Positions 1 to 64,000 of a stretch of DNA of 64,000 nucleotides are shown one piece after another. The notes beneath the pieces are model-generated. The model was not told the origin of the DNA. It made no database searches and saw only the letters and a list, made by a program, of their open reading frames with translations. Numbering within the stretch: the stretch's first letter is position 1; each line of letters starts with the position of its first letter. A program made the position numbers and the translations under genes. Origin of the DNA: Eledone cirrhosa (taxonomy: Eukaryota); NCBI GenBank assembly GCA_964016885.1, contig OZ024741.1, forward strand, positions 411,184,001 through 411,248,000, written 5' to 3'.

Positions 1-40
1 CCGCGATAGTTGAACCGCCAAGTAGCGAGGTATCACTGTA
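1..40. mobile_element. Terminus of a Tc1/mariner (pogo/Tigger-like) DNA transposon, truncated by the window edge, with flanking TA
   Basis: The reverse complement reads TA|CAGTGATACCTCGCTACTTGGCGGTTCAACTATCGCGG. This matches the CAGTNNNNCCTCG...CGCGG terminal pattern of pogo/Tigger-type TIRs, with TA (39-40) as target site. The partner TIR is not in the window. Confidence 0.55.
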
Positions 41-66
41 TATATGTTTAAATATATAGTGTAGCT

Positions 67-16905: not shown

Positions 16906-16929
16906 TAGAAACATAGGATATAACACACA

Positions 16930-21200: not shown

Positions 21201-21625
21201 TATCTATAGTAATATAATATATCTATAGTGATATAATATATGTACGGTGATATAATAATATATCTGTAGTGATATAATAATATATCTATAGTGATATAAT
21301 AATATATCTATAGTGATATAATAATATTTCTATAGTGATATAATAACATATATCTACAGTGATATAATAATATATCTATAGTGAAATAATAATATATCTA
21401 TAGTGATATAATAATATATCTACAGTGATATAATAATATATCTATAGTGAAATAATAATATATCTATAGTGATATAATAATATATCTAGTGATATAATAA
21501 TATATCTATAGCGATATAATAATATATCATTAGTGATATAATATATCTACAGTGATATAATAAAATATCTATAGTGATATACTATATCTACAGTGATATA
21601 ATAATATATCTATAGTTATATAATA
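18293..21625. repeat. Satellite 1 AAT-type domain 2
   Basis: Return to AATAAT linkers and mixed TATAG/TACAG cores. Confidence 0.95.
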
Positions 21626-21649
21626 TAGAAACATAGCATATAACACACA

Positions 21650-24600: not shown

Positions 24601-25935
24601 AACAACATATCTACAGTGATATAACAACACCAACATATCTACAGCGATATAACAACACCAACATATCTACAGTGATATAACAACAACATATCTACAGTGA
24701 TATAACAACAACAACATATCTACAGTGATATAACACCAACATATCTACAGTGATATAACAACACCAACATATCTACAGTGATATAACAACAACAACAACA
24801 TATCTACAGTGATATAACAACAACAACATATCTACAGTGATACAACAACAACAACAACAACAACATATCTACAGTGATATAACAACACCAACATATCTAC
24901 AGTGATATAACAACAACAACATATTTACAGTGATATAACAACAACAACATATCTACAGTGATATAACAACAACATATCTACAGTGATATAACAACAACAT
25001 ATCTACAGTGATATAACAACACCAACATATCTACAGTGATATAACAACAACAACAACATATCTACAGTGATATAACAACAACAACATATCTACAGTGATA
25101 TAACAGCAACATATCTACAGTGATATAACAACACCAACATATCTACAGTGATATAACAACAACATATCTACAGTGATATAACAACAACAACAACATATCT
25201 ACAGTGATATAACAACACCAACATATCTACAGTGATATAACAACAACAACAACATATCTACAGTGATATAACAACAACAACATATCTACAGTGATATAAC
25301 AGCAACATATCTACAGTGATATAACAACACCAACATATCTACAGTGATATAACAACAACATATCTACAGTGATATAACAACAACAACATATCTACAGTGA
25401 TATAACAACACCAACATATCTACAGTGATATAACAACACCAACATATCTACAGTGATATAACAACACCAACATATCTACAGTGATATAACAACAACATAT
25501 CTATAGTGATATAACAACAACAACATATCTACAGTGATATAACACCAACATATCTACAGTGATATAACACCAACATATCTACAGTGATATAACAACAACA
25601 ACAACATATCTACAGTGATATAACAACAACACCAACATATCTACAGTGATATAACAACAACATATCTACAGTGATATAACAACAACATATCTACAGTGAT
25701 ATAACAACAACATATCTACAGTGATATAACACCACCAACATATCTACAGTGATATAACAACAACACCAACATATCTACAGTGATATAACAACAACATATC
25801 TACAGTGATATAACATCATATCTACAGTGATATAACACCATATCTACAGTGATATAACAACAACATATCTACAGTGATATAACAACAACATATCTACAGT
25901 GATATAACAACAACAACATATCTACAGTGATATAA
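21650..25935. repeat. Satellite 1 AAC-type domain 2
   Basis: ATATCTACAGTGATAT followed by 1 to about 6 AAC/ACC triplets per monomer. Confidence 0.95.
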
Positions 25936-26958: not shown

Positions 26959-26964
26959 ACTTAC
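26959..26964 (-). promoter_or_regulatory. 5' splice donor GTAAGT of the CDC23 exon
   Basis: The minus strand reads TTATATTT|GTAAGTTTTT, a perfect consensus. The TAA that ends the ORF-track ORF is part of this donor. Confidence 0.88.
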
Positions 26965-27073
26965 AAATATAAACAAAATCCATCGAGTTCCTTCTTTTGG
27001 TGCTTTTTTGATAATTCTGTCTTTAAAATTTTCACTCTTGCTAAATCATCATTTATAACTGAGGTCATACTAG
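26965..27073 (-). CDS. CDC23: Internal coding exon (109 bp, phase 1 to phase 2) of cell division cycle protein 23 / anaphase-promoting complex subunit 8
   Basis: Encodes xSMTSVINDDLARVKILKTELSKKHQKKELDGFCLY(L). This aligns to human CDC23 as recalled, LRELRVELSKKHQARELDGFGLYL(YGVVL), with ELSKKHQ..ELDGF.LYL identical. Bounded by CTAAT-GTCCTTTATTCCTACAG| and |GTAAGT. No other CDC23 exon was found in the window. Confidence 0.88.
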
Positions 27074-30000
27074 CTGTAGGAATAAAGGACATTAGCTTTA
27101 TAACTGGAGTCATACTAGCTGTAGGAATAAAGGACATTAGCTTTATAACTGGAGTCATACTAGCTGTAGGAATAAAGAGGACAGCTTTATAACTGGAGTC
27201 ATACTAGCTGTAGGAATAAAGAGGACAGCTTTATAACTGGGGTCATACTAGCTGTAGGAATAAAGAGGACAGCTATATAACTGGAGTCATACTAGCTGTA
27301 GGAATAAAGAGGACAGCTTTATAACTGGGGTCATACTAGTTGTAGGAATAAAGAGGACAGCTTTATAACTGGGGTCATACTAGCTGTAGGAATAAAGAGG
27401 ACAGCTTTATAACTGGGGTCATACTAGTTGTAGGAATAAAGAGGACAGCTTTATAACTGGGGTCATACTAGCTGTAGGAATAAAGAGGACAGCTTTATAA
27501 CTGGGGTCATACTAGCTGTAGGAATAAAGAGGACAGCTTTATAACTGGGGTCATAATAGCTGTAGGAATAAAGAGGACAGCTTTATAACTGGGGTCATAC
27601 TAGCTGTAGGAATAAAGAGGACAGCTTTATAACTGTGGTCATACTAGCTGTAGGAATAGAGAGGACAGCTTTATAACTGGGGTCATACTAGCTGTAGGAA
27701 TAAAGAGGACAGCTTTATAACTGGGGTCATACTAGCTGTAGGAATAAAGAGGACAGCTTTATAACTGGGGTCATACTATTTGTAGGAATAAAGAGGACAG
27801 CTTTATAACTGGAGTCATACTAGATGTAGGAATAAAGAGGACAGCTTTATAACTGGGGTCATACTAGTTGTAGGAATAAAGAGGACAGCTTTAAAACTGG
27901 GGTCATACTAGCTGTAGGAATAAAGAGGACAGCTTTCTAACTGGGGTCATACTGGGTGTAGGAATAAAGGACATTAGCTTTATAACTAGGGTCATACTAG
28001 CTATAGGAATAAAGAGGACAGCTTTATAACTGGGGTCATACTAGTTGTAGGAATAAAGAGGACAGCTTTATAACTGGGGTCATACTAGCTGTAGGAATAA
28101 AGAGGACAGCTTTATAACTGGGCTCATACTAGGTGTAGGAATAAAGAGGACAGCTTTATAACTGGGGTCATACTAGCTGTAGGAATAAAGAGGACAGCTT
28201 TATAACTGGGGTCATACTAGATGTAGGAATAAAGAGGACAGCTTTATAACTGGGGTCATACTAGCTGTAGGAATAAAGAGGACAGCTTTCTAACTGGGGT
28301 CATACTAGGTGTAGGAATAAAGAGGACAGCTTTATAACTGGGGTCATACTAGCTGTAGGAATAAAGAGGACAGCTTTATAACTGGGGTCATACTAGTTGT
28401 AGGAATAAAGAGGACAGCTTTAAAACTGGGGTCATACTAGCTGTAGGAATAAAGAGGACAGCTTTCTAACTGGGGTCATACTGGGTGTAGGAATAAAGAG
28501 GACAGCTTTATAACTGGGGTCATGCTAGCTGTAGGAATAAAGAGGACAGCTTTATAACTGGGGTTTTACTAGTTGTAGGAATAAAGGACATTAGCTTTAT
28601 ACCTGAGGTCATACTAGCTGTAGGAATAAAGAGGACAGCTTTATAACTGTGGTCATACTAGCTGTAGGAATAAAGAGGACAGCTTTATAACTGGGGTCAT
28701 ACTAGGTGTAGGAATAGAGAGGACAGCTTTATAACTGGGGTCATACTAGATGTAGGAATAAAGAGGACAGCTTTATAACTGGGGTCATATTAGTGTAGGA
28801 ATAGAGAGGACAGCTTTATAACTGGGGTCATACTAGCTGTAAAAATAAAGAGGACAGCTTTATAACTGGGGTCATACTAGTAGTAGGAATAGAGAGGACA
28901 GCTTTATAACTGGGGTCATACTAGCTGTAGGAATAAAGAGGACAGCTTTATAACTGGGGTCATACTAGTTGTAGGAATAAAGGACATTAGCTTTATAACT
29001 GGGGTCATACTAGATGTAGGAATAAAGAGGACAGCTTTATAACTGGGGTCATACTAGCTGTAGGAATAGAGAGGACAGCTTTATAACTGGGGTCATACTA
29101 GTTGTAGGAATAGAGAGGACAGCTTTATAACTGGGGTCATACTAGTTGTAGGAATAGAGAGGACAGCTTTATAACTGGGGTCATAATAGCTGTAGGAATA
29201 AAGGACATTAGCTTTATAACTGGGGTCATACTAGGTGTAGGAATAGAGAGGACAGCTCTATAACTGGGGTCATACTAGATGTAGGAATAAAGAGGACAGC
29301 TTTATAACTGGGGTCATACTAGCTGTAGGAATAAAGAGGACAGCTTTATAACTGGGGTCATACTAGTTGTAGGAATAGAGGGGACAGCTTTATAACTGGG
29401 GTCATAGTAGCTGTAGGAATAAAGAGGACAGCTTTATAACTGGGGTCATACTAGATGTAGGAATAAAGAGGACAGCTTTATAACTGGGGTCATACTAGTT
29501 GTAGGAATAGAGAGGACAGCTTTATAACTGGGGTCATACTAGCTGTAGGAATAAAGGACATTAGCTTTATAACTGGGGTCATACTAGCTGTAGGAATAAA
29601 GAGGACAGCTTTATAACTGGGGTCATACTAGCTGTAGGAATAAAGAGGACAGCTTTATAACTGGGGTCATACTAGCTGTAAGAATAAAGGGGACAGCTTT
29701 ATAACTGGGGTCATACTAGCTGTAGGAAGAAAGAGGACAGCTTTATAACTGGGGTCATAGTAGTGTAGGAATAGACAGGACAGCTTTATAACTGGGGTCA
29801 TAGTAGCTGTAAGAATAAAGAAGACAGATTTATAACTGGGGTCATACTAGCTGTAGGAATAAAGGACATTAGCTTTATAACTGGGGTCATACTAGCTGTA
29901 GGAATAAAGAGGACAGCTTTATAACTGGGGTCATAGTAGCTGTAGGAATAAAGAGGACAGCTTTATAACTTGGGTCATACTAGTGTAGGAATAGAGAGGA

Positions 30001-33000
30001 CAGCTTTATAACTGGGGTCATACTAGCTGTAGGAATAAAGAGGACAGCTTTCTAACTGGGGTCATACTGGGTGTAGGAATAAAGAGGACAGCTTTATAAC
30101 TGGGGTCATACTAGCTGTAGGAATAAAGAGGACAGCTTTATAACTGGGGTCATACTAGTTGTAGGAATAAAGGACATTAGCTTTATACCTGAGGTCATAC
30201 TAGCTGTAGGAATAAAGAGGACAGCTTTATAACTGTGGTCATACTAGCTGTAGGAATAAAGAGGACAGCTTAATAACTGGGGTCATACTAGCTGTAGGAA
30301 TAAAGAGGACAGCTTTCTAACTGGGGTCATACTAGATGTAGGAATAAAGAGGACAGCTTTATAACTGGGGTCATATTAGTGTAGGAATAAAGAGGACAGC
30401 TTTATAACTGGGGTCATACTAGTTGTAGGAATAAAGGACATTAGCTTTATACCTGAGGTCATACTAGCTGTAGGAATAAGGAGGACAGCTTTATAACTGG
30501 GGTCATACTAGTAGTAGGAATAGAGAGGACAGCTTTATAACTGGGGTCATACTAGCTGTAGGAATAAAGAGGACAGCTTTATAACTGGGGTCATACTAGT
30601 TGTAGGAATAAAGGACATTAGCTTTATAACTGGGGTCATACTAGATGTAGGAATAAAGAGGACAGCTTTATAACTGGGGTCATACTAGCTGTAGGAATAG
30701 AGAGGACAGCTTTATAACTGGGGTCATACTAGTTGTAGGAATAGAGAGGACAGCTTTATAACTGGGGTCATACTAGTTGTAGGAATAGAGAGGACAGCTT
30801 TATAACTGGGGTCATACTAGCTGTAGGAATAAAGGACATTAGCTTTATAACTGGGGTCATACTAGGTGTAGGAATAGAGAGGACAGCTTTATAACTGGGG
30901 TCATACTAGATGTAGGAATAAAGAGGACAGCTTTATAACTGGGGTCATACTAGCTGTAGGAATAAAGAGGACAGCTTTATAACTGGGGTCATACTAGTTG
31001 TAGGAATAGAGAGGACAGCTTTATAACTGGGGTCATAGTAGCTGTAGGAATAAAGAGGACAGCTTTATAACTGGGGTCATACTAGATGTAGGAATAAAGA
31101 GGACAGCTTTATAACTGGGGTCATACTAGTTGTAGGAATAGAGAGGACAGCTTTATAACTGGGGTCATACTAGCTGGAGGAATAAAGGACATTAGCTTTA
31201 TAACTGGGGTCATACTAGCTGTAGGAATAAAGAGGACAGCTTTATAACTGGGGTCATACTAGCTGTAGGAATAAAGAGGACAGATTTATAACTGGGGTCA
31301 TACTAGCTGTAAGAATAAAGAGGACAGCTTTATAAGTGGAGTCATACTAGGTGTAGGAATAAAGAGGACAGCTTTATAACTGGGGTCATACTAGCTGTAA
31401 GAATAAAGGGGACAGCTTTATAACTGGGGTCATACTAGCTGTAGGAAGAAAGAGGACAGCTTTATAACTGGGGTCATAGTAGTGTAGGAATAGACAGGAC
31501 AGCTTTATAACTGGGGTCATAGTAGCTGTAAGAATAAAGAGGACAGATTTATAACTGGGGTCATACTAGCTGTAGGAATAAAGGACATTAGCTTTATAAC
31601 TGGGGTCATACTAGCTGTAGGAATAAAGAGGACAGCTTTATAACTGGGGTCATAGTAGCTGTAGGAATAAAGAGGACAGCTTTATAACTTAGGTCATACT
31701 AGTGTAGGAATAGAGAGGACAGCTTTATAACTGGGGTCATACTAGCTGTAGGAATAAAGAGGACAGCTTTATAACTGGGGTCATACTAGCTGTAGGAATA
31801 AAGAGGACAGCTTTATAACTGGGGTCATACTAGTGTAGGAATAGAGAGGACAGCTTTATAACTGGGGTCATACTAGCTGTAGGAATAAAGAGGACAGCTT
31901 TATAACTGGGGTCATACTAGCTGTAGGAAGAAAGAGGACAGCTTTATTACTGGGGTCATACTAGTTGTAGGAATAAAGAGGACAGCTTTATAACTGGGGT
32001 CATACTAGTTGTAGGCATAAAGAGGACAGCTTTATAACTGGGGTCATACTAGTTGTAGGAATAAAGAGGACAGCTTTATAACTGGGGGTCATACTAGATG
32101 TAGGAATAAAGAGGACAGCTTTATAACTGGGGTCATACTAGCTGTAGGAATAAAGAGGACAGCTTTCTAACTGGGGTCATACTAGGTGTAGGAATAAAGA
32201 GGACAGCTTTATAACTGGGGTCATACTAGCTGTAGGAATAAAGAGGACAGCTTTATAACTGGGGTCATACTAGTTGTAGGAATAAAGAGGACAGATTTAT
32301 AACTGGGGTCATACTAGCTGTAGGAATAAAGAGGACAGCTTTCTAACTGAGCTCATACTAGGTGTAGGAATAAAGAGGACAGCTTTATAACTGGGGTCAT
32401 ACTAGGTGTAGGAATAAAGAGGACAGCTTTATAACTGGGGTCATACTAGTTGTAGGAATAAAGGACATTAGCTTTATACCTGAGGTCATACTAGCTATAG
32501 GAATAAAGAGGACAGCTTTATAACTGGGGTCATACTAGTTGTAGGAATAAAGAGGACAGCTTTATAACTGGGGTCATACTAGCTGTAGGAATAAAGAGGA
32601 CAGCTTTATAACTTGGGTCATACTAGTGTAGGAATAAAGGACATTAGCTTTATAACTGGGGTCATACTAGCTGTAGGAATAAAGAGGACAGCTTTATAAC
32701 TGGGGTCATAGTAGCTGTAGGAATAAAGAGGACAGCTTTATAACTTGGGTCATACTAGTGTAGGAATAGAGAGGACAGCTTTATAACTGGGGTCATACTA
32801 GCTGTAGGAATAAAGAGGACAGCTTTATAACTGGGGTCATACTAGCTGTAGGAATAAAGAGGACAGCTTTATAACTGGGGTCATACTAGTGTAGGAATAG
32901 AGAGGACAGCTTTATAACTGGGGTCATACTAGCTGTAGGAATAAAGAGGACAGCTTTATAACTGGGGTCATACTAGCTGTAGGAAGAAAGAGGACAGCTT

Positions 33001-36000
33001 TATTACTGGGGTCATACTAGTTGTAGGAATAAAGAGGACAGCTTTATAACTGGGGTCATACTAGTTGTAGGCATAAAGAGGACAGCTTTATAACTGGGGT
33101 CATACTAGTTGTAGGAATAAAGAGGACAGCTTTATAACTGGGGGTCATACTAGATGTAGGAATAAAGAGGACAGCTTTATAACTGGGGTCATACTAGCTG
33201 TAGGAATAAAGAGGACAGCTTTCTAACTGGGGTCATACTAGGTGTAGGAATAAAGAGGACAGCTTTATAACTGGGGTCATACTAGCTGTAGGAATAAAGA
33301 GGACAGCTTTATAACTGGGGTCATACTAGTTGTAGGAATAAAGAGGACAGATTTATAACTGGGGTCATACTAGCTGTAGGAATAAAGAGGACAGCTTTCT
33401 AACTGGGCTCATACTAGGTGTAGGAATAAAGAGGACAGCTTTATAACTGGGGTCATACTAGGTGTAGGAATAAAGAGGACAGCTTTATAACTGGGGTCAT
33501 ACTAGTTGTAGGAATAAAGGACATTAGCTTTATACCTGAGGTCATACTAGCTATAGGAATAAAGAGGACAGCTTTATAACTGGGGTCATACTAGTTGTAG
33601 GAATAAAGAGGACAGCTTTATAACTGGGGTCATACTAGCTGTAGGAATAAAGAGGACAGCTTTATAACTGGGCTCATACTAGGTGTAGGAATAAAGAGGA
33701 CAGCTTTATAACTGGGGTCATACTAGCTGTAGGAATAAAGAGGACAGCTTTATAACTGGGGTAATACTAGATGTAGGAATAAAGAGGACAGCTTTATAAC
33801 TGGGGTCATACTAGCTGTAGGAATAAAGAGGACAGCTTTCTAACTGGGGTCATACTAGGTGTAGGAATAAAGAGGACAGCTTTATAACTGGGGTCATACT
33901 AGCTGTAGGAATAAAGAGGACAGCTTTATAACTGGGGTCATACTAGTTGTAGGAATAAAGAGGACAGCTTTAAAACTGGGGTCATACTAGCTGTAGGAAT
34001 AAAGAGGACAGCTTTCTAACTGGGGTCATACTAGCTGTAGGAATAAAGAGGACAGCTTTATAACTGGGGTCATACTAGCTGTAGGAATAAAGAGGACAGC
34101 TTTCTAACTGGGGTCATACTAGGTGTAGGAATAAAGAGGACAGCTTTATAACTGGGGTCATACTAGCTGTAGGAATAAAGAGGACAGCTTTATAACTGGG
34201 GTCATACTAGCTGTAGGAATATAGAGGACAGCTTTATAACTGGGGTCATACTAGCTGTAGGAATAAAAAGGACAGCTTTATAACTGGGGTCATACTAGCT
34301 GTAGGCACAGGACAGCTTTATAACTGGGGTCATACTAGCTATAGGAAGAGGACAGCTTTATAACTGGGGTCATACTAGCTGTAGGAAGAGGACAGCTTTA
34401 TAACTGGGGTCATACTAGGTGTAGGAATAGAGAGGACAGCTTTATAACTGGGGTCATACTAGATGTAGGAATAAAGAGGACAGCTTTATAACTGGGGTCA
34501 TACTAGCTGTAGGAAGAAAGAGGACAGCTTTATAACTGGGGTCATAGTAGTGTAGGAATAGACAGGACAGCTTTATAACTGGGGTCATAGTAGCTGTAAG
34601 AATAAAGAGGACAGATTTATAACTGGGGTCATACTAGCTGTAGGAATAAAGGACATTAGCTTTATAACTGGGGTCATACTAGCTGTAGGAATAAAGAGGA
34701 CAGCTTTATAACTGGGGTCATAGTAGCTGTAGGAATAAAGAGGACAGCTTTATAACTTGGGTCATACTAGTGTAGGAATAGAGAGGACAGCTTTATAACT
34801 GGGGTCATACTAGCTGTAGGAATAAAGAGGACAGCTTTATAACTGGGGTCATACTAGCTGTAGGAATAAAGAGGACAGCTTTATAACTGGGGTAATACTA
34901 GCTGTAGGAATAAAGAGGACAGCTTTATAACTGGGGTCATACTAGCTGTAGGAAGAAAGAGGACAGCTTTATTACTGGGGTCATACTAGTTGTAGGAATA
35001 AAGAGGACAGCTTTATAACTGGGGTCATACTAGTTGTAGGCATAAAGAGGACAGCTTTATAACTGGGGTCATACTAGTTTTAGGAATAAAGAGGACAGCT
35101 TTATAACTGGGGTCATACTAGATGTAGGAATAAAGAGGACAGCTTTATAACTGGGGTCATACTAGCTGTAGGAATAAAGAGGACAGCTTTCTAACTGGGG
35201 TCATACTAGGTGTAGGAATAAAGAGGACAGCTTTATAACTGGGGTCATACTAGCTGTAGGAATAAAGAGGACAGCTTTATAACTGGGGTCATACTAGTTG
35301 TAGGAATAAAGAGGACAGATTTATAACTGGGGTCATACTAGCTGTAGGAATAAAGAGGACAGCTTTCTAACTGGGCTCATACTAGGTGTAGGAATAAAGA
35401 GGACAGCTTTATAACTGGGGTCATACTAGGTGTAGGAATAAAGAGGACAGCTTTATAACTGGGGTCATACTAGTTGTAGGAATAAAGGACATTAGCTTTA
35501 TACCTGAGGTCATACTAGCTATAGGAATAAAGAGGACAGCTTTATAACTGGGGTCATACTAGTTGTAGGAATAAAGAGGACAGCTTTATAACTGGGGTCA
35601 TACTAGCTGTAGGAATAAAGAGGACAGCTTTATAACTGGGCTCATACTAGGTGTAGGAATAAAGAGGACAGCTTTATAACTGGGGTCATACTAGCTGTAG
35701 GAATAAAGAGGACAGCTTTATAACTGGGGTCATACTAGATGTAGGAATAAAGAGGACAGCTTTATAACTGGGGTCATACTAGCTGTAGGAATAAAGAGGA
35801 CAGCTTTCTAACTGGGGTCATACTAGGTGTAGGAATAAAGAGGACAGCTTTATAACTGGGGTCATACTAGCTGTAGGAATAAAGAGGACAGCTTTATAAC
35901 TGGGGTCATACTAGTTGTAGGAATAAAGAGGACAGCTTTAAAACTGGGGTCATACTAGCTGTAGAAATAAAGAGGACAGCTTTCTAACTGGGGTCATACT

Positions 36001-39000
36001 GGGTGTAGGAATAAAGAGGACAGCTTTATCACTGGGGTCATGCTAGCTGTAGGAATAAAGAGGACAGCTTTATAACTGGGGTCATACTAGTTGTAGGAAT
36101 AAAGGACATTAGCTTTATACCTGAGGTCATACTAGCTGTAGGAATAAAGAGGACAGCTTTATAACTGTGGTCATACTAGCTGTAGGAATAAAGAGGACAG
36201 CTTTATAACTGGGGTCATACTAGGTGTAGGAATAAAGAGGGCAGCTTTATAACTGGGGTCATACTAGCTGTAGGAATACAGACAGCTTTATAACTGGGGT
36301 CATAGTAGCTGTAGGAATAGAGAGGACAGCTTTCTAACTGGGATCATACTAGTTGTAGGAATAAAGAGGACAGCTTTATAACTGGGGTCATACTAGCTGT
36401 AAGAATAAAGAGGACAGCTTTATAACTGGGGTCATGCTAGATGTAGGAATAGAGAGGACAGCTTTATAACTGGGGTCATACTAGCTGTAAGAATAAAGAG
36501 GACAGCTTTATAACTGAGGTCATACTAGCTGTAAGAATAAAGAGGACAGCTTTATAACTGGGGTCATACTAGCTGTAGGAATAAAGAGGACAGCTTTATA
36601 ACTGGGGTCATACTAGCTGTAGGAATAAAGAGGACAGCTTTATAACTGGGGTCATACTAGCTGTAGGAATAAAGAGGACAGCTTTATAACTGGGGTCATA
36701 CTAGTTGTAGGAATAAAGAGGACAGCTTTATAACTGGGGTCATACTAGCTGTAGGAATAAAGCGGACAGCTTTATAACTGGGGTCATACTAGCTGTAAGA
36801 ATAAAGAGGACAGCTTTATAACTGGGGTCATACTAGTTGTAGAAATAAAGAGAACAGCTTTATAACTGGGGTCATACTAGATGTAGGTATAAAGAGGACA
36901 GCTTTATAACTGGGGTCATACTAGTTGTAGGAATAAAGGGGACAGCTTTATAACTGGGGTCATACTAGTTGTAGGAATAAAGAGGACAGCTTTATAACTG
37001 GGGTCATACTAGGTGTAGGAATAAAGAGGACAGCTTTATAACTGTGGTCATACTAGCTGTAGGAATAAAGAGGACAGCTTTATAACTGAGGTCATACTAG
37101 CTGTAGTAATAAAGAGGACAGCTTTATAACTGGGGTCATACTAGCTGTAGGAATAAAGAGGACAGCTTTATAACTGGGGTCATACTAGCTGTAGGAAGAG
37201 GACAGCTTTATAACTGGGGTCATACTAGCTGTAGGAATAAAGAGGACAGCTTTATAACTGTGGTCATACAAGCTGTAGGAATAAAGAGGACAGCTTTATA
37301 ACTGGGGTCATACTAGCTGTAGGAATAAAGAAGACAGCTTTATAACTGGGGTCATAGTAGCTGTAGGAATAAAGAAGCTTTATAACTGGGGTCATACTAG
37401 CTGTAGGAATAAAGAGGACAGCTTTATAACTGGGGTCATACTAGCTGTAGGAATAAAGAGGACAGCTTTATAGCTGGGGTCATAGTAGCTGTAGGAATAA
37501 AGAGGACAGCTTTATAACTGGGGTCATAGTAGCTGTAAGAATAAAGAGGACAGCTTTATAACTGGGGTCATAGTAGCTGTAGGAATAAAGAGGACAGCTT
37601 TATAACTGGGGTCATACTAGTGTAGGAATATAAAGGACAGCTTTATAACTGGGGTCATACTAGCTGTAAGAATAAAGAGGACAGCTTTATAACTGCGGTC
37701 ATACTAGTTGTAGGAATAAAGAGGACAGCTTTATAACTGGGGTCATACTAGCTGTAGGAATAAAGAGGACAGCTTTATAACTGGGGTCATACTAGTTGTA
37801 GGAATAAAGAGGACAGCTTTATAACTGGGGTCATACTAGCTGTAGGAATAAAGAGGACAGCTTTATAACTGGGGTCATACTAGTTGTAGGAATAAAGAGG
37901 ACAGCTTTATAACTGGGGTCATACTAGCTGTAGGAATAAAGAGGACAGCTTTATAACTGGGGTCATACTAGTTGTAGGAATAAAGAGGACAGCTTTATAA
38001 CTGGAGTCATACTAGATGTAGGAATAAAGAGGACAGCTTTATAACTGGGGTCATACTAGCTGTAGGAATAAAGAGGACAGCTTTATAACTGGGCTCATAC
38101 TAGGTCTAGGAATAAAGAGGACAGCTTTATAACTGGGGTCATACTAGCTGTAGGAATAAAGAGGACAGCTTTATAACTGGGGTCATACTAGATGTAGGAA
38201 TAAAGAGGACAGCTTTATAACTGGGGTCATACTAGCTGTAGGAATAAAGAGGACAGCTTTCTAACTGGGGTCATACTAGGTGTAGGAATAAAGAGGACAG
38301 CTTTATAACTGGGGTCATACTAGCTGTAGGAATAAAGAGGACAGCTTTATAACTGGGGTCATACTAGTTGTAGGAATAAAGAGGACAGCTTTAAAACTGG
38401 GGTCATACTAGCTGTAGGAATAAAGAGGACAGCTTTCTAACTGGGGTCATACTGGGTGTAGGAATAAAGAGGACAGCTTTATAACTGGGGTCATGCTAGC
38501 TGTAGGAATAAAGAGGACAGCTTTATAACTGGGGTTTTACTAGTTGTAGGAATAAAGGACATTAGCTTTATACCTGAGGTCATACTAGGTGTAGGAATAG
38601 AGAGGACAGCTTTATAACTGGGGTCATACTAGATGTAGGAATAAAGAGGACAGCTTTATAACTGGGGTCATATTAGTGTAGGAATAGAGAGGACAGCTTT
38701 ATAACTGGGGTCATACTAGCTGTAAAAATAAAGAGGACAGCTTTATAACTGGGGTCATACTAGTAGTAGGAATAGAGAGGACAGCTTTATAACTGGGGTC
38801 ATACTAGCTGTAGGAATAAAGAGGACAGCTTTATAACTGGGGTCATACTAGTTGTAGGAATAAAGGACATTAGCTTTATAACTGGGGTCATACTAGCTGT
38901 AGGAATAAAGAGGACAGCTTTCTAACTGGGGTCATACTAGCTGTAGGAATAAAGAGGACAGCTTTATAACTGGGGTCATACTAGCTGTAGGAATAAAGAG

Positions 39001-54000: not shown

Positions 54001-57000
54001 TAACTGGGGTCATACTAGCTGTAGGAATAAAGAGGACAGCTTTATAACTGGGGTCATACTAGTTGTAGGAATAAAGAGGACAGCCTTATAACTGGGGTCA
54101 TACTAGCTGTATGAATAAAGAGGACAGCTTTATAACTGGGGTCATACTAGTTGTAGGAATAAAGAACATTAGCTTTATACCTGAGGTCATACTAGCTGTA
54201 GGAATAAAGAGGACAGCTTTATAACTGGGGTCATACTAGTTGTAGGAAGAAAGAGGACAGCTTTATAACTGGGGTCATACTAGCTGTAGGAATAAAGAGG
54301 ACAGCTTTATAATTGGGGTCATACTAGCTGTAGGAATAAAGAGGACAGCTTTATAACTGAGTTCATACTAGCTGTAGGAATAAAGGACATTAGCTTTATA
54401 CCTGGGGTCATGCTAGCTGTAGGAAGAGGACAGCTTTATAACTGGGGTCATACTAGCTGTAGGAATAAAGAGGACAGCTTTCTAACTGGGGTCATACTAG
54501 GTGTAGGAATAAAGAGGAAAGCTTTATAACTGGGGTCATACTAGCTGTATGAATAAAGAGGACAGCTTTATAACTGGGGTCATACTAGTTGTAGGAATAA
54601 AGAGGACAGATTTATAACTGGGGTCATACTAGATGTAGGAATAAAGAGGACAGCTTTCTAACTGGGCTCATACTAGGTGTAGGAATAAAGAGGACAGCTT
54701 TATAACTGGGGTCATACTAGCTGTAGGAATAAAGAGGACAGCTTTATAACTGGGGTCATACTAGTTGTAGGAATAAAGGACATTAGTTTTATACCTGAGG
54801 ACATACTAGCTATAGGAATAAAGAGGACAGCTTTATAACTGTGGTCATACTAGCTGTAGGAATAAAGAGGACAGCTTTATAACTGGGGTCATACTAGCTG
54901 TAGGAAGAAAGAGGACAGCTTTATAACTGGGGTCATACTAGCTGTAGGAATAAAGAGGACAGCTTTATAACTGGGGTCATACTAGCTGTAGGAATAAAGA
55001 GGACAGCTTTATAACTGGGGTCATACTAGCTGTAGGAATAAAGAGGACAGCTTTATAACTGGGGTCATACTAGCTGTAGGAATAAAGAGGACAGCTTTAT
55101 AACTGGGGTCATACTAGCTGTAGGAATAAAGAGGACAGCTTTATAACTGTGGTCATACTAGCTGTAGGAATAAAGAGGACAGCTTTATAACTGGGGTCAT
55201 ACTAGGTGTAGGAATAAAGAGGGCAGCTTTATAACTGGGGTCATACCAGCTGTAGGAATAAAGACAGCTTTATAACTGGGGTCATAGTAGCTGTAGGAAT
55301 AGAGAGGACAGCTTTCTAACTGGGATCATACTAGTTGTAGGAATAAAGAGGACAGCTTTATAACTGGGGTCATACTAGCTGTAGGAATAAAGAGGATAGC
55401 TTTATAACTGAGGTCATACTAGCTGTAGGAATAAAGGACATTAGCTTTATACCTGGGGTCATGCTAGCTGTAGGAAGAGGACAGCTTTATAACTGGGGTC
55501 ATACTAGCTGTAGGAATAGAGAGGACAGCTTTCTAACTGGGATCATACTAGTTGTAGGAAGAAAGAGGACAGCTTTATAACTGGGGTCATACTAGCTGTA
55601 GGAATAAAGAGGACAGCTTTATAATTGGGGTCATACTAGCTGTAGGAATAAAGAGGACAGCTTTATAACTGAGTTCATACTAGCTGTAGGAATAAAGGAC
55701 ATTAGCTTTATACCTGGGGTCATGCTAGCTGTAGGAAGAGGACAGCTGTATAACTGGGGTCATACTAGCTGTAGGAATAAAGAGGACAGCTTTCTAACTG
55801 GGGTCATACTAGGTGTAGGAATAAAGAGGACAGCTTTATAACTGGGGTCATACTAGCTGTATGAATAAAGAGGACAGCGTTATAACTGGGGTCATACTAG
55901 TTGTAGGAATAAAGAGGACAGATTTATAACTGGGGTCATACTAGCTGTAGGAATAAAGAGGACAGCTTTCTAACTGGGCTCATACTAGGTGTAGGAATAA
56001 AGAGGACAGCTTTATAACTGGGGTCATACTAGCTGTAGGAATAAAGAGGACAGCTTTATAACTGGGGTCATACTAGTTGTAGGAATAAAGGACATTAGCT
56101 TTATACCTGAGGACATACTAGCTATAGGAATAAAGAGGACAGCTTTATAACTGTGGTCATACTAGCTGTAGGAATAAAGAGGACAGCTTTATAACTGGGG
56201 TCATACTAGCTGTAGGAATAAAGAGGACAGCTTTATAACTGGGGTCATACTAGCTGTAGGAATAAAGAGGACAGCTTTATAACTGGGGTCATACTAGCTG
56301 TAGGAATAAAGAGGACAGCTTTATAACTGGGGTCATACTAGCTGTAGGAATAAAGAGGACAGCTTTATAACTGGGGTCATACTAGCTGTAGGAATAAAGA
56401 GGACAGCTTTATAACTGGGGTCATACGAGCTGTAGGAATAGAGAGGACAGCTTTATAACTGGGGTCATACTAGTTGTAGGAATAAAGAGGACAGCTTTAT
56501 AACTGGGGTCATACTAGTTGTAGGAATAAAGAGGACAGCTTTATAACTGGGGTCATACTAGTTGTAGGAATAAAGAGGACAGCTTTATAACTGCGGTCAT
56601 ACTAGTTGTAGGAATAAAGAGGACAGCTTTATAACTGGGGTCATACTAGTTGTAGGAATAAAGAGGACAGCTTTATAACTGGGGTCATACTAGTTGTAGG
56701 AATAAAGAGGACAGCTTTATAACTGGGGTCATACTAGCTGTAGGAATAAAGAGGACAGCTTTATAACTGGGGTCATAGTAGCTGTAGGAATAAAGAGGAC
56801 AGATTTATAACTGGGGTCATACTAGTGTAGGAATAGAGAGGACAGCTTTATAACTGGGGTCATAGTAGCTGTAGGAATAAAGAGGACAGCTTTATAACTG
56901 GGGTCATACTAGCTGTAGGAATAAAGAGGACAGCTTTATAACTGGTGTCATACTAGCTGTAGGAATAAAGAGGACAGCATTATAACTGGGGTCATACTAG

Positions 57001-60000
57001 TGTAGGAATAGAGAGGACAGCTTTATAACTGGGGTCATACGAGCTGTAGGAATAAAGAGGACAGCTTTATAACTGGGGTCATACTAGCTGTAGGAAGAAA
57101 GAGGACAGCTTTATAATTGGGGTCATACTAGCTGTAGGAATAAAGAGGACAGCTTTATAACTGGGGTCATACTAGTTGTAGGAATAAAGAGGACAGCTTT
57201 ATAACTGGGGTCATACTAGCTGTATGAATAAAGAGGACAGCTTTATAACTGGGGTCATACTAGTTGTAGGAATAAAGAACATTAGCTTTATACCTGAGGT
57301 CATACTAGCTGTAGGAATAAAGAGGACAGCTTTATAACTGTGGTCATACTAGCTGTAGGAATAAAGAGGACAGCTTTATAACTGGGGTCATACTAGGTGT
57401 AGGAATAAAGAGGGCAGCTTTATAACTGGGGTCATACTAGCTGTAGGAATAAAGACAGCTTTATAACTGGGGTCATAGTAGCTGTAGGAATAGAGAGGAC
57501 AGCTTTCTAACTGGGATCATACTAGTTGTAGGAATAAAGAGGACAGCTTTATAACTGGGGTCATACTAGCTGTAGGAATAAAGAGGACAGCTTTATAACT
57601 GAGGTCATACTAGCTGTAGGAATAAAGGACATTAGCTTTATACCTGGGGTCATGCTAGCTGTAGGAAGAGGACAGCTTTATAACTGGGGTCATACTAGCT
57701 GTAGGAATAAAGAGGACAGCTTTATAACTGGGGTCATACTAGTTGTAGGAATAAAGAGGACAGATTTATAACTGGGGTCATACTAGCTGTAGGAATAAAG
57801 AGGACAGCTTTCTAACTGGGCTCATACTAGGTGTAGGAATAAAGAGGACAGCTTTATAACTGGGGTCATACTAGCTGTAAGAATAAAGAGGACAGCTTTA
57901 TAACTGGGGTCATACTAGTTGTAGAAATAAAGAGGACAGCTTTATAACTGGGGTCATACTAGATGTAGGTATAAAGAGGACAGCTTTATAAATGGGGTCA
58001 TACTAGGTGTAGGAATAAAGAGGACAGCTTTATAGCTGGGGTCATAGTAGCTGTAGGAATAAAGAGGACAGCTTTATAACTGGGGTCATAGTAGCTGTAA
58101 GAATAAAGAGGACAGCTTTATAACTGGGGTCATAGTAGCTGTAGGAATAAAGAGGACAGCTTTATAACTGGGGTCGTACTAGTGTAGGAATATAAAGGAC
58201 AGCTTTATAACTGGGGTCATACTAGCTGTAAGAATAAAGAGGACAGCTTTATAACTGCGGTCATACTAGTTGTAGGAATAAAGAGGACAGCTTTATAACT
58301 GGGGTCATACTAGTTGTAGGAATAAAGAGGACAGCTTTATAACTGGGGTCATACTAGTTGTAGGAATAAAGAGGACAGCTTTATAACTGGGGTCATACTA
58401 GCTGTAGGAATAAAGAGGACAGCTTTATAACTGGGGTCATAGTAGCTGTAGGAATAAAGAGGACAGATTTATAACTGGGGTCATACTAGTGTAGGAATAG
58501 AGAGGACAGCTTTATAACTGGGGTCATAGTAGCTGTAGGAATAAAGAGGACAGCTTTATAACTGGGGTCATACTAGCTGTAGGAATAAAGAGGACAGCTT
58601 TATAACTGGTGTCATACTAGCTGTAGGAATAAAGAGGACAGCATTATAACTGGGGTCATACTAGTGTAGGAATAGAGAGGACAGCTTTATAACTGGGGTC
58701 ATACGAGCTGTAGGAATAAAGAGGACAGCTTTATAACTGGGGTCATACTAGCTGTAGGAAGAAAGAGGACAGCTTTATAATTGGGGTCATACTAGCTGTA
58801 GGAATAAAGAGGACAGCTTTATAACTGGGGTCATACTAGTTGTAGGAATAAAGAGGACAGCTTTATAACTGGGGTCATACTAGCTGTATGAATAAAGAGG
58901 ACAGCTTTATAACTGGGGTCATACTAGTTGTAGGAATAAAGAACATTAGCTTTATACCTGAGGTCATACTAGCTGTAGGAATAAAGAGGACAGCTTTATA
59001 ACTGTGGTCATACTAGCTGTAGGAATAAAGAGGACAGCTTTATAACTGGGGTCATACTAGGTGTAGGAATAAAGAGGGCAGCTTTATAACTGGGGTCATA
59101 CTAGCTGTAGGAATAAAGACAGCTTTATAACTGGGGTCATAGTAGCTGTAGGAATAGAGAGGACAGCTTTCTAACTGGGATCATACTAGTTGTAGGAATA
59201 AAGAGGACAGCTTTATAACTGGGGTCATACTAGCTGTAGGAATAAAGAGGACAGCTTTATAACTGAGGTCATACTAGCTGTAGGAATAAAGGACATTAGC
59301 TTTATACCTGGGGTCATGCTAGCTGTAGGAAGAGGACAGCTTTATAACTGGGGTCATACTAGCTGTAGGAATAAAGAGGACAGCTTTATAACTGGGGTCA
59401 TACTAGTTGTAGGAATAAAGAGGACAGATTTATAACTGGGGTCATACTAGCTGTAGGAATAAAGAGGACAGCTTTCTAACTGGGCTCATACTAGGTGTAG
59501 GAATAAAGAGGACAGCTTTATAACTGGGGTAATACTAGCTGTAGGAATAAAGAGGACAGCTTTATAACTGGGGTCATACTAGTTGTAGGAATAAAGGACA
59601 TTAGCTTTATACCTGAGGTCATACTAGCTATAGGAATAAAGAGGACAGCTTTATAACTGTGGTCATACTAGCTGTAGGAATAAAGAGGACAGCTTTCTAA
59701 CTGGGGTCATACTAGTTGTAGGAATAAAGAGGACAGCTTTATAACTGGGGTCATACTAGCTGTAGGAATAAAGAGGACAGCTTTATAACTGGGCTCATAC
59801 TAGGTGTAGGAATAAAGAGGACAGCTTTATAACTGGGGTCATACTAGCTGTAGGAATAAAGAGGACAGCTTTATAACTGGGGTCATACTAGATGTAGGAA
59901 TAAAGAGGACAGCTTTATAACTGGGGTCATACTAGCTGTAGGAATAAAGAGGACAGCTTTCTAACTGGGGTCATACTAGGTGTAGCAATAAAGAGGACAG

Positions 60001-63000
60001 CTTTATAACTGGGGTCATACTAGCTGTAGGAATAAAGAGGACAGCTTTATAACTGGGGTCATACTAGTTGTAGGAATAAAGAGGACAGCTTTAAAACTGG
60101 GGTCATACCAGCTGTAGGAATAAAGAGGACAGCTTTCTAACTGGGGTCATACTAGGTGTAGGAATAAAGAGGACAGCTTTATAACTGGGGTCATGCTAGC
60201 TGTAGGAATAAAGAGGACAGCTTTATAACTGGGGTCATACTAGTTGTAGGAATAAAGGACATTAGCTTTATACCTGAGGTCATACTAGCTGTAGGAATAA
60301 AGAGGACAGCTTTATAACTGTGGTCATACTAGCTGTAGGAATAAAGAGGACAGCTTTATAACTGGGGTCATACTAGGTGTAGGAATAAAGAGGGCAGCTT
60401 TATAACTGGGGTCATACTAGCTGTAGGAATAAAGACAGCTTTATAACTGGGGTCATAGTAGCTGTAGGCATAGAGAGGACAGCTTTCTAACTGGGATCAT
60501 ACTAGTTGTAGGAATAAAGAGGACAGCTTTATAACTGGGGTCATACTAGCTGTAGGAATAAAGAGGACAGCTTTATAACTGAGGTCATACTAGCTGTAGG
60601 AATAAAGGACATTAGCTTTATACCTGGGGTCATGCTAGCTGTAGGAAGAGGACAGCTTTATAACTGGGGTCATACTAGCTGTAGGAATAAAGAGGACAGC
60701 TTTCTAACTGGGGTCATACTAGGTGTAGGAATAAAGAGGACAGCTTTATAACTGGGGTCATACTAGCTGTATGAATAAAGAGGACAGCTTTATAACTGGG
60801 GTCATACTAGTTGTAGGAATAAAGAGGACAGATTTATACCTGGGGTCATACTAGCTGTTGGAATAAAGAGGACAGCTTTCTAACTGGGCTCATACTAGGT
60901 GTAGGAATAAAGAGGACAGCTTTATAACTGGGGTCATACTAGCTGTAGGAATAAAGAGGACAGCTTTATAACTGGGGTCATACTAGTTGTAGGAATAAAG
61001 GACATTAGCTTTATACCTGAGGTCATACTAGCTATAGGAATAAAGAGGACAGCTTTATAACTGTGGTCATACTAGCTGTAGGAATAAAGAGGACAGCTTT
61101 CTAACTGGGGTCATACTAGTTGTAGGAATAAAGAGGACAGCTTTATAACTGGGGTCATACTAGCTGTAGGAATAAAGGACAGCTTTATAACTGGGCTCAT
61201 ACTAGGTGTAGGAATAAAGAGGACAGCTTTATAACTGGGGTCATACTAGCTGTAGGAATAAAGAGGACAGCTTTATAACTGGGGTCATACTAGATGTAGG
61301 AATAAAGAGGACAGCTTTATAACTGGGGTCATACTAGATGTAGGAATAAAGAGGACAGCTTTATAACTGGGGTCATACTAGCTGTAGGAATAAAGAGGAC
61401 AGCTTTCTAACTGGGGTCATACTAGGTGTAGGAATAAAGAGGACAGCTTTATAACTGGGGTCATACTAGCTGTAGGAATAAAGAGGACAGCTTTATAACT
61501 GGGGTCATACTAGTTGTAGCAATAAAGAGGACAGCTTTAAAACTGGGGTCATACTAGCTGTAGGAATAAAGAGGACAGCTTTCTAACTGGGGTCATACTA
61601 GGTGTAGGAATAAAGAGGACAGCTTTATAACTGGGGTCATGCTAGCTGTAGGAATAAAGAGGACAGCTTTATAACTGGGGTCATACTAGTTGTAGGAATA
61701 AAGGACATTAGCTTTATACCTGAGGTCATACTAGCTGTAGGAATAAAGAGGACAGCTTTATAACTGTGGTCATACTAGCTGTAGGAATAAAGAGGACAGC
61801 TTTATAACTGGGGTCATACTAGCTGTAGGAATAAAGAGGACAGCTTTATAACTGGAATCATACTAGTTGTAGGAATAAAGAGGACAGCTTTATAACTGGG
61901 GTCATACTAGCTGTAAGAATAAAGAGGACAGCTTTATAACTGGGGTCATGCTAGATGTAGGAATAGAGAGGACAGCTTTATAACTGGGGTCATACTAGCT
62001 GTAAGAATAAAGAGGACAGCTTTATAACTGGGGTCATACTAGCTGTAAGAATAAAGAGGACAGCTTTATAACTGAAGTCATACTAGCTGTAAGAATAAAG
62101 AGGACAGCTTTATAACTGGGGTCATACTAGCTGTAGGAATAAAGAGGACAGCTTTATAACTGGGGTCATACGAGCTGAAGGAATAGAGAGGACAGCTTTA
62201 TAACTGGGGTCATACTAGTTGTAGGAATAAAGAGGACAGCTTTATAACTGGGGTCATACTAGTTGTAGGAATAAAGAGGACAGCTTTATAACTGGGGTCA
62301 TACTAGTTGTAGGAATTAAGAGGACAGCTTTATAACTGGGGTCATACTAGCTGTAGGAATAAAGAGGACAGCTTTATTACTGGGGTCATACTAGCTGTAA
62401 GAATAAAGAGGACAGCTTTATAACTGGGGTCATACTAGTTGTAGAAATAAAGAGGACAGCTTTATAACTGGAGTCATACTAGATGTAGGTATAAAGAGGA
62501 CAGCTTTATAACTGGGGTCATACTAGTTGTAGGAATAAAGGGGACAGCTTTATAACTGGGGTCATACTAGTTGTAGGAATAAAGAGGACAGCTTTATAAC
62601 TGGGGTCATACTAGGTGTAGGAATAAAGAGGACAGCTTTATAACTGGGGTCATACTAGCTGTAGCAATAAAGAGGACAGCTTTATAACTGGGGTCATACT
62701 AGCTGTAGTAATAAAGAGGACAGCTTTATAACTGGGGTCATACTAGCTGTAGGAATAAAGAGGACAGCTTTATAACTGGGGTCATACTAGCTGTAGGAAG
62801 AGGACAGCTTTATAACTGGGGTCATACTAGCTGTAGGAATAAAGAGGACAGCTTTATAACTGTGGTCATACTAGCTGTAGGAATAAAGAGGACAGCTTTA
62901 TAACTGGGGTCATACTAGCTGTAGGAATAAAGAGGACAGCTTTATAACTGGGGTCATACTAGCTGTAGGAATAAAGAAGACATCTTTATAACTGGGGTCA

Positions 63001-64000
63001 TAGTAGCTGTAGGAATAAAGAAGAAAGCTTTATAACTGGGGTCATACTAGCTGTAGGAATAAAGAGGACAGCTTTATAACTGGTGTCATACTAGCTGTAG
63101 GAATAAAGAGGACAGCTTTATAACTGGGGTCATACTAGCTGTAGGAAGAGGACAGCTTTATAACTGGGGTCATACTAGCTGTAGGAATAAAGAGGACAGC
63201 TTTATAACTGTGGTCATACTAGCTGTAGGAATAAAGAGGACAGCTTTATAACTGGGGTCATACTAGCTGTAGGAATAAAGAGGACAGCTTTATAACTGGG
63301 GTCATACTAGCTGTAGGAATAAAGAAGACAGCTTTATAACTGGGGTCATAGTAGCTGTAGGAATAAAGAAGAAAGCTTTATAACTGGGGTCATACTAGCT
63401 GTAGGAATAAAGAGGACAGCTTTATAACTGGTGTCATACTAGCTGTAGGAATAAAGAGGACAGCATTATAACTGGGGTCATACTAGTGTAGGAATAGAGA
63501 GGACAGCTTTATAACTGGGGTCATACGAGCTGTAGGAATAAAGAGGACAGCTTTATAACTGGGGTCATACTAGCTGTAGGAAGAAAGAGGACAGCTTTAT
63601 AACTGGGGTCATACTAGCTGTAGGAATAAAGAGGACAGCTTTCTAACTGGGGTCATACTAGGTGTAGGAATAAAGAGGACAGCTTTATAACTGGGGTCAT
63701 GCTAGCTGTAGGAATAAAGAGGACAGCTTTATAACTGGGGTCATACTAGTTGTAGGAATAAAGGACATTAGCTTTATACCTGAGGTCATACTAGCTGTAG
63801 GAATAAAGAGGACAGCTTTATAACTGTGGTCATACTAGCTGTAGGAATAAAGAGGACAGCTTTATAACTGGGGTCATACTAGCTGTAGGAATAAAGAGGA
63901 CAGCTTTATAACTGGAATCATACTAGTTGTAGGAATAAAGAGGACAGCTTTATAACTGGGGTCATACTAGCTGTAAGAATAAAGAGGACAGCTTTATAAC
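27052..64000. repeat. Satellite 2: at least 37-kb intronic tandem array of a 44-bp monomer TTTATAACTGGGGTCATACTAGCTGTAGGAATAAAGAGGACAGC (45-bp minority variant ...AATAAAGGACATTAGC), about 840 copies, running off the window end
   Basis: Directly visible. The first 22 bp overlap the CDC23 exon. Contains kb-scale higher-order duplications. Confidence 0.98.
27074..27096 (-). promoter_or_regulatory. 3' splice acceptor with branch point and polypyrimidine tract (also part of the first satellite 2 monomer)
   Basis: Minus strand GCTAATGTCCTTTATTCCTACAG|CTAGT: CTAAT branch motif at 27095-27091, pyrimidine tract, CAG at 27076-27074. Confidence 0.82.

What the first reader, a model, noticed from the sequence alone, without database searches (positions are those of the whole stretch)
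27074..64000. The most polymorphic base of the monomer is exactly the G of the acceptor AG
Seen: at plus-strand TAG[C]TGTAGG all alternatives are common: TAGTTG (27339 and many more), TAGATG, TAGGTG and the deletion TAGTG. On the sense strand these turn CAG into CAA, CAT or CAC. Other positions vary much less and usually to a single base. Inference: decoy-killing mutations arose repeatedly and spread in the array, as expected if selection acts against cryptic acceptors. Caveats: by eye more than half the copies still keep CAG, and a second AG (CTAG) lies 4 nt downstream in most copies. That second AG is destroyed in the CATAGTAG variant.
Basis: partly seen in the sequence, partly recalled or inferred. 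Interest (0 to 1): 0.75.

Follow-up and report, generated by a model that had tools for sequence, protein, structure and literature searches.

The report
Four-allele splice base in octopus satellite
A 44-base piece spanning an intron end and exon start of an octopus-type cell-division gene (CDC23) is repeated about 900 times, and the G of its splice signal is changed in 41% of copies in four different ways, likely old variants carried along as the repeat grew rather than a purge of false splice sites, although selection on the folded RNA is not excluded.

Summary
Observation confirmed; cause unproven. The array (902 monomers, window 27052 to 2.6 kb past the window end) is the amplified 3' splice junction of a CDC23 exon on the minus strand. 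A spliced public contig uses only the last copy. The G of the acceptor AG is altered in 371 of 902 copies (all three substitutions plus deletion; next site about 11%), still 95 of 239 after collapsing higher-order repeats. It holds 4 of 11 common alleles but only 0-2 of 21-33 recent changes, so it is no current hotspot; 0 of 5863 neutral simulations gave this at that site. Plain decoy-killing fits poorly: the A of AG varies in 5 of 902, 889 keep an AG, the five decoys nearest the exon are intact, and four other acceptor-type arrays show no purge. A top site this variable is ordinary here (16 of 30 arrays). New: the monomer is a quasi-palindrome, and this G is predicted to be its most fold-critical base on the transcribed strand only. 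Best reading: tolerated 'mirage' repeat with old amplified variants (0.45); RNA-level selection 0.28. The scan had already noted such arrays in other genes of this genome.

The parts
27052..64000 (-). 44-bp satellite: last 22 nt of a CDC23 intron plus first 22 nt of the next exon, joined at a TAAA microhomology; 842 full monomers in the window, 902 in all (ends at L001:2625, window scale 66625)
27074..27075 (-). The used acceptor AG (G at 27074 = monomer position 23 of the last copy)
   Evidence: spliced contig of run X4 lies on 26965-27073 with 0 differences and continues into the upstream exon; in-frame join matches the octopus protein
26965..27073 (-). CDC23/APC8 coding exon, 109 nt
   Evidence: (human CDC23 152-173, E 0.0014)
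26959..26964 (-). Donor GTAAGT of that exon
   Evidence: sequence; X4 contig continues into the next CDC23 exon from 26965
27070..27072 (-). Second AG (TAG) 4 nt downstream of the acceptor, present in 818 of 902 monomers; its use would give an immediate stop (read from the sequence)
27074..27141 (-). Intron parts of the last two monomers: minority 45-nt type (56 of 902) with a CTAAT branch-point-like motif (27091-27095); acceptors 1 and 2 upstream stay in frame (+15, +30 aa), acceptor 3 onward hits a stop
27250..27274 (-). Example of the predicted 6-bp stem AGCUGU/ACAGCU (arms 27269-27274 and 27250-27255) that encloses the pyrimidine tract and pairs the acceptor AG; position 23 is its central G-C pair
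   Evidence: predicted only:
27340..27340 (+). First position-23 variant (T) counted from the exon, sixth decoy
3550..25935 (-). 22/28-bp satellite in the next CDC23 intron (part of a 77-kb array) whose unit matches that intron's own acceptor; served as a replicate, AG intact in 2482 of 2601 motif matches

Best explanation
This is a very large intron-exon junction satellite ('mirage') in CDC23 that the one spliced contig seen skips in favour of the last copy, and the four variants at the acceptor G are likely old changes that arose while the array was small and were carried to high frequency by block duplication, not a purge of decoy acceptors. Shown: origin from the junction, use of the last acceptor, four alleles at one base, faithful copying in higher-order repeats, no present-day hotspot, a C/non-C two-monomer rhythm. 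Inferred: an early C/T dimer set the deep split that most arrays here have; three further changes hit the same C:G pair, which belongs to the more mutable base class; the cell likely finds the true site because only it is followed by a full exon and donor, helped by a branch-point-like motif and a predicted open structure. The match with the AG would then be largely a coincidence picked out by a scan over many such arrays.
For: A top site at 36.7% substitution or more occurs in 16 of 30 unrelated arrays, and a second allele of 8% or more at the top site in 8 of 30. C/G sites are multi-allelic more often than A/T sites (29 of 516 against 9 of 713). An array 15 kb upstream of the CDC23 start codon, with no host gene found, shows a like pattern (C to A 27%, G 11%, T 2%). 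Lag-1 correlation -0.15 and lag-2 +0.29 show a dimer stage, and the G allele shares the T phase. A of AG altered in 5 of 902; 889 of 902 keep an AG; nearest five decoys intact; no trend along the array (32-53% per 60 monomers). Replicates keep their AG: 35 of 35 and 2482 of 2601 (CDC23 22-mer), 114 of 114 (35-mer at a fasciclin-domain exon), 48 of 48 (72-mer family in CDC23 introns), 8 of 8 (57-mer); a 41-mer has G 8.5% and A 7.1%, not its top sites.
Against: Neutral birth-death simulations matched for diversity gave three substitutions of 6% or more at any site in 10 of 5863 runs and at position 23 in 0. Shuffling allele frequencies within the array gives P about 0.006, the lowest of 30 arrays, and only 1 of the 29 others (a more diverged one) has a third allele of 6% or more. 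Common alleles are in excess over recent changes at this site. The same base is also the predicted keystone of the sense-strand RNA fold, a second coincidence. Two replicates (35-mer, 57-mer) are young and have little power.
Confidence: 0.45

Rival explanations
1. Selection on the transcript at a double-duty base: the sense RNA of the array is predicted to fold back on itself into long imperfect duplexes, and changing the G at -1 would break the strongest helix while also removing the CAG that the opened helix would expose. Such copies would have been favoured early, when each one mattered.
For: A consensus trimer folds far better than shuffles (z -4.17, 0 of 200). The three position-23 substitutions rank 1-3 (18 C) or 2-4 (37 C) of 132 in predicted destabilisation; the site ranks 1 of 44 on the transcribed strand and 19 of 44 on the other. 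This would explain the quiet A at -2, where one change keeps a wobble pair (rank 57-60) and the others cost less. Other positions of that stem vary little (mean 1.0% against 3.0%, P 0.035). Excess of common over recent alleles. The real acceptor ranks 3 of 531 in predicted AG accessibility.
Against: Found after the fact and predicted only. No link between fold effect and allele frequency at the other 43 sites (rho -0.03) or in 29 other arrays once base class is controlled (P 0.2-0.8). Stem-breaking alleles are not significantly tied to AG-dead copies (10 of 17 against 27 of 68, P 0.18). The TAG 4 nt downstream is predicted unpaired in consensus copies. It does not predict a second hit on an already altered copy. 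The variants weaken four-monomer folds only from -51.3 to -44.3 kcal/mol.
Confidence: 0.28
2. One reading: changes at the G were selected because they kill decoy acceptors that compete with the real one.
For: The site is a true acceptor G and decoys from the third onward lead to a premature stop. Four alleles, in excess over recent mutation. The A allele often lies next to other altered copies, as a new hit on an intact copy would. Monomers with the branch-point-like motif are altered somewhat more often (31 of 56; 8 of 14 collapsed columns).
Against: No independent change at the A (chance 0.014-0.13 for G:A rate ratios of 1-3). 358 of 371 altered copies keep a TAG behind the same pyrimidine tract; only 13 of 902 lose both. 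No enrichment beside the exon or at the 5' end. No such signal in four other acceptor-type arrays or at the GT of a 701-copy donor-like array.
Confidence: 0.14
3. Past site-specific mutagenesis: once alternate monomers differed at this base, out-of-register pairing made mismatches there, and faulty repair produced the further alleles and the deletion.
For: Dimer rhythm and G allele in the T phase. Among 18 arrays of matching diversity 5 have a second allele of 10% or more, against 1-8% of simulations. An excess of triallelic sites is reported in humans (seen only as cited in PMC7605211).
Against: No or few position-23 differences between duplicated blocks (0 of 21, 0 of 28, 2 of 33), although such pairing should mostly leave C/T conversions. 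Without this array the link between first and second allele at top sites is weak (4 of 29 against 1.6 expected, P 0.07 at the best threshold; none at two others).
Confidence: 0.13

Closest known systems
Amphioxus 'mirage' minisatellites (Adh3, globins BflGb6/BflGb9, troponin C, PGBD5); PMC3087553 and PMC3902484, passages read
   Same: Tandem copies of an intron 3' end plus exon start inside the intron; many but not all copies keep the splice signal; normal splicing seen; edge copies differ from the interior.
   Different: 902 copies and 39.6 kb with higher-order repeats against 3-6 copies for BflGb6; four alleles at the acceptor G and a fold-back monomer are not mentioned in the passages read. 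The original Adh3 paper and the supplements were not seen.
Exon stuttering on chicken dot chromosomes (PMC12954441; abstract and passages read)
   Same: Local expansion that copies an exon edge with its donor or acceptor through the neighbouring intron; several arrays in one gene.
   Different: 1-44 copies and at most 23.6 kb there; base-level variation among copies was not their aim; length variation between individuals was shown there and could not be tested here.
Excess of triallelic sites in humans (Hodgkinson and Eyre-Walker 2010; paper not held; seen only as cited in PMC7605211)
   Same: More alleles at one site than independent mutation predicts.
   Different: That concerns alleles in a population; here they are copies within one array. 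The heteroduplex mechanism is my recollection and inference, not read.
RNA structure hiding splice sites (for example PMC1935003, PMC4615370; search listing and start of abstract only)
   Same: A hairpin that pairs the acceptor is a known way to mask a site.
   Different: Known from single sites; here it is only predicted, and repeated about 500 times.

Membership tests
Mirage / exon-stuttering repeat | Unit spans an intron-exon boundary of the host gene | tested here: met
   22 nt intron + 22 nt exon of CDC23
Mirage / exon-stuttering repeat | Copies lie in the intron and the exon stays intact | tested here: met
   Open 109-nt exon, in frame with both neighbours
Mirage / exon-stuttering repeat | Normal mRNA is still made | tested here: met
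   One spliced contig (run X4, not on record as RNA) joins at the last acceptor; contigs drop rare forms
Mirage / exon-stuttering repeat | Many but not all copies keep the splice signal | tested here: met
   531 of 902 keep CAG
Mirage / exon-stuttering repeat | Copy number varies between haplotypes or individuals | not testable with these tools
   Only short contigs cover the array
Array purged of decoy acceptors by selection | Excess of common alleles over mutation supply at the splice signal | tested here: met
   4 of 11 against 0 of 21, 0 of 28, 2 of 33
Array purged of decoy acceptors by selection | Both invariant bases (A and G) are hit | tested here: not met
   A altered in 5 of 902, all on G-altered copies
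Array purged of decoy acceptors by selection | Altered copies lose every usable AG behind the pyrimidine tract | tested here: not met
   13 of 902 lose both AGs
Array purged of decoy acceptors by selection | Loss is concentrated where decoys compete most (next to the exon) | tested here: not met
   0 of the nearest 5, 2 of 10, 6 of 20 altered
Array purged of decoy acceptors by selection | Same signal in other acceptor arrays | tested here: not met
   Four arrays plus a dispersed family without it; two are young and weak tests
Array purged of decoy acceptors by selection | Intact decoys are used at a measurable rate, altered ones are not | not testable with these tools
   No raw RNA reads listed
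Point-mutation hotspot (active now) | Recent changes cluster at the site | tested here: not met
   0 of 20; 0 of 21, 0 of 28, 2 of 33
Recursive-splicing ratchet point | AG directly followed by GT | tested here: not met
   Junction reads CAG then CT

The most novel reading that the evidence does not exclude
A satellite's sequence evolution has been steered by RNA-level selection on its host pre-mRNA: out of 44 positions, all four possible changes at the one base that both forms the splice acceptor and locks a fold-back helix were driven to high frequency, while the true acceptor captured a stem-free, branch-point-bearing, in-frame unit. Such arrays would be natural mutagenesis screens of 3' splice-site and RNA-structure constraints.
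Probability: 0.28. Interest if true: 0.7.

Novelty: new variant of a known kind. Interest (0 to 1): 0.4.

Why it matters
Satellite variants are usually treated as neutral products of unequal exchange. If copies were favoured for what they do to the host transcript, this would be a countable case of splicing or RNA structure shaping a satellite, and hundreds of near-identical decoys in one intron would make a direct test of how a spliceosome picks one acceptor. If neutral, it still shows that an essential gene tolerates over 500 intact decoy acceptors in one intron, and it warns that a 40% top site is normal in these arrays.

Tried and rejected
Sequencing or assembly noise: rejected, alleles are copied exactly in duplicated blocks (for example 0 differences over 111 monomers, which may itself be very recent or an assembly duplicate), and short contigs of two organism labels lie on the monomer at hundreds of times the depth of the exon (depth is only a rough guide, and X1/X2 may be the assembly's own sample). 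AGCT motif hotspot: rejected, 2 of 20 AGCT C/G positions are highly variable and the second AGCT of this monomer is not. General link between fold and variation: not found. DNA-hairpin version: position 23 ranks only 8-14 (minus) and 21-100 (plus) of 132. The first simulation was mis-calibrated (52 matched runs) and was replaced. A first recent-change routine was too strict (1 event, at position 23; none in the 41-mer) and was replaced. No RNA holder listed; no X4 contig on the decoys, which shows nothing about rare use. Alleles at position 23 in organism B could not be read from its contigs. A host gene for the upstream 22-mer was not found (33 peptides), so its status is open. The 46-bp fasciclin, 39-bp NEDD4, 53-bp condensin and 41-bp PIK3R4 arrays named in earlier notes were not located. 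A genome-wide pattern search for tandem acceptors was not obtained, so the replicate set is small. MaxEntScan and SpliceAI were not available. Literature searches listed no report of a hypervariable acceptor base in a junction satellite; the library lacks most subscription journals.

Full report
What is there. From 27052 to the window end lies a 44-bp tandem array. The window sits about 5 Mb from the end of a 416-Mb contig of a 3.0-Gb genome. The array ends 2.6 kb beyond the window and holds 902 full monomers. On the minus strand the last monomer runs into a 109-nt exon (27073-26965) whose peptide matches human CDC23. The upstream exon, 0.6 kb beyond the far end of the array, matches Pfam ANAPC8 and is 95% identical to Octopus bimaculoides CDC23; the other coding exons were mapped with that protein. 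The monomer is the last 22 nt of the intron plus the first 22 nt of the exon, joined at a shared TAAA. A 1852-nt contig of run X4 lies on exactly 26965-27073 without differences, and its loose ends are the upstream and downstream exons. The run is not on record as RNA, but the joins make the contig a spliced transcript (inference). So the last copy is the used acceptor and the base in question is its G.

Observation. Position 23 reads C 531, T 182, G 94, A 57, deleted 38: 41.1% altered, against about 11% for the next site. After collapsing higher-order repeats it is 95 of 239 columns. The alleles are copied faithfully in long duplicated blocks, so they are real.

Is it more than chance? I profiled 39 arrays from the same chromosome end, dropped 9 as repeats of a family already counted, and kept 30, most as samples of 10 to 40 kb. 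The most variable site reaches this array's substitution level (36.7%) in 16 of 30, so the height alone is ordinary. The spread over alleles is not: a third substitution of 6% or more occurs in 2 of 30, and shuffling allele frequencies among slots gives P about 0.006 for this array, the lowest of the 30. In neutral duplication-deletion simulations matched for diversity, 10 of 5863 runs had such a site anywhere, none at position 23, while position 23 was the top site in 227. Real arrays are more often tri-allelic than these simulations (5 of 18 matched arrays, this one included, against 1-8%), so the simulated null is too strict. The scan also picked this case from many junction arrays in this genome (earlier notes).

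Not a present-day hotspot. Aligning duplicated blocks while ignoring position 23, recent changes are scattered: 0 of 20, and 0 of 21, 0 of 28 and 2 of 33 with looser chaining fall at position 23. Yet 4 of the 11 alleles at 4% or more are there (Fisher P 0.009, 0.004, 0.027). The variants are therefore old and were amplified.

Tests of decoy killing. (a) The A of AG is altered in 5 of 902, all on copies whose G is already altered; four successes at G and none at A has probability 0.014, 0.043 or 0.13 for rate ratios of 1, 1.6 or 3. (b) 358 of 371 altered copies keep a TAG 4 nt downstream; only 13 of 902 lose both, and second-AG loss is mostly on intact copies (71 of 531 against 13 of 371; 16 of 144 against 3 of 95 collapsed). 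(c) The five decoys nearest the exon are intact, and the altered share is flat along the array. (d) Altered and intact copies alternate (lag 2 +0.29), and the G allele lies in the T phase (P 0.007 on collapsed columns, which are not independent), whereas A and the deletion do not. (e) Replicates: the next CDC23 intron carries a 22-bp array matching its own acceptor, with AG in 35 of 35 copies beside the exon and 2482 of 2601 in the large block; a 35-bp array ending at a fasciclin-domain exon keeps AG in 114 of 114; a 57-mer keeps 8 of 8; a 694-copy 41-mer with an acceptor-like motif has G 8.5% and A 7.1%, below its top sites (52%, 31%); a donor-like array keeps GT in over 98% of 701 copies. 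For the last three I took gene and strand from earlier notes without checking. An array 15 kb upstream of the CDC23 start codon shows a similar three-allele site in an AGCT context, with no host gene found.

A new structural angle. The monomer is a quasi-palindrome. In the sense RNA, AGCUGU is predicted to pair with ACAGCU across the pyrimidine tract, so the acceptor AG is inside a 6-bp stem; a second helix lets neighbouring monomers fold back on each other (trimer z -4.17). The three position-23 substitutions are the most destabilising of 132 at 18 C and rank 2-4 at 37 C; the site ranks first on the transcribed strand and 19th on the other. The 5'-most copy lacks this stem (sequence), and the last two copies are a 45-nt minority type with a CTAAT motif that breaks it and keeps the frame; the real AG ranks 3 of 531 in predicted accessibility. 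Against making much of this: it was found after the fact; no relation holds at the other 43 sites or in 29 other arrays after controlling for base class; stem-breaking alleles are not significantly tied to AG-dead copies (P 0.18); and the downstream TAG is predicted unpaired in consensus copies.

How it most likely works. Shown: junction origin, correct splicing in one contig, four old alleles, block duplication. Inferred: a duplication at a short microhomology seeded the unit; an early C/T dimer gave the deep split typical of these arrays; three more changes hit the same C:G pair and rode later expansions; only the last acceptor has an exon and donor behind it, so decoys are likely ignored (exon definition, established knowledge, recalled). 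I put this at 0.45, RNA-level selection at the double-duty base at 0.28, plain decoy killing at 0.14 and past mismatch-driven mutagenesis at 0.13. The array is also present in a run with another organism label and 7 listed differences in exon and intron, so it is likely older than that split.

Comparison with what is known. It meets the features of amphioxus 'mirages' (PMC3087553, PMC3902484; passages) and chicken exon stuttering (PMC12954441; abstract and passages) that I could test, at far larger scale. The name and these papers came from earlier scan notes. My searches listed no report of a hypervariable acceptor base in such a repeat; supplements and the original Adh3 paper were not seen and could bear on this.

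Verdict. Real and statistically unusual at one base, in a known kind of repeat; the selective story as first written is only partly supported. New variant of a known kind, interest 0.4.

Noticed in passing
window 27074-27164: The two acceptors just upstream of the real one are 45 nt apart and in frame, so their use would add 15 or 30 residues rather than stop the protein; the real acceptor sits in the 6% minority unit with a CTAAT motif.
   Followed up: partly
window 3550-25935; L022:1648-2496: The next CDC23 intron (about 86 kb) is mostly a 22-bp satellite matching its own acceptor and exon start; a 38-copy block abuts the exon and is cut off from the 77-kb block by other DNA.
   Followed up: partly
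G000:C2 about 411022800-411023160 (window scale -161206 to -160836): A 91-bp unit holding an exon end and donor of CDC23 is repeated four times: a third junction repeat in the same gene.
   Followed up: no
L005:4590 to L008:1800 (window scale 108590-135800): 27-kb telomere-like 22-bp array, 1240 copies, whose only plus-strand C is changed to A 27%, G 11%, T 2%; no host gene found.
   Followed up: partly
L174:2319-6547: 35-bp array of about 115 copies built from the acceptor of a fasciclin-domain exon; each unit reads CAG then GTAA, like a recursive splice site, and every AG is intact.
   Followed up: partly
window 33970-43690 (monomers 158-380): A block of 111 monomers is duplicated in tandem with no difference: very recent or an assembly duplicate.
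   Followed up: no
window 26003-26477: Plus-strand stretch inside the CDC23 intron with acceptor- and donor-like signals and short open frames, one hydrophobic; no Pfam match above cut-off.
   Followed up: partly
L019-L020 region, window scale -66517 to -65848 and -61359 to -59826: A 26-bp array rich in CTAAC motifs lies just upstream of one CDC23 acceptor, and a (CTA/CCA)n tract fills most of another intron.
   Followed up: no
run X5 on window 27050-27170: In organism B contigs resembling the 45-nt type, and shorter units, reach high depth, whereas this type is a minority in organism A; its array make-up may differ.
   Followed up: no
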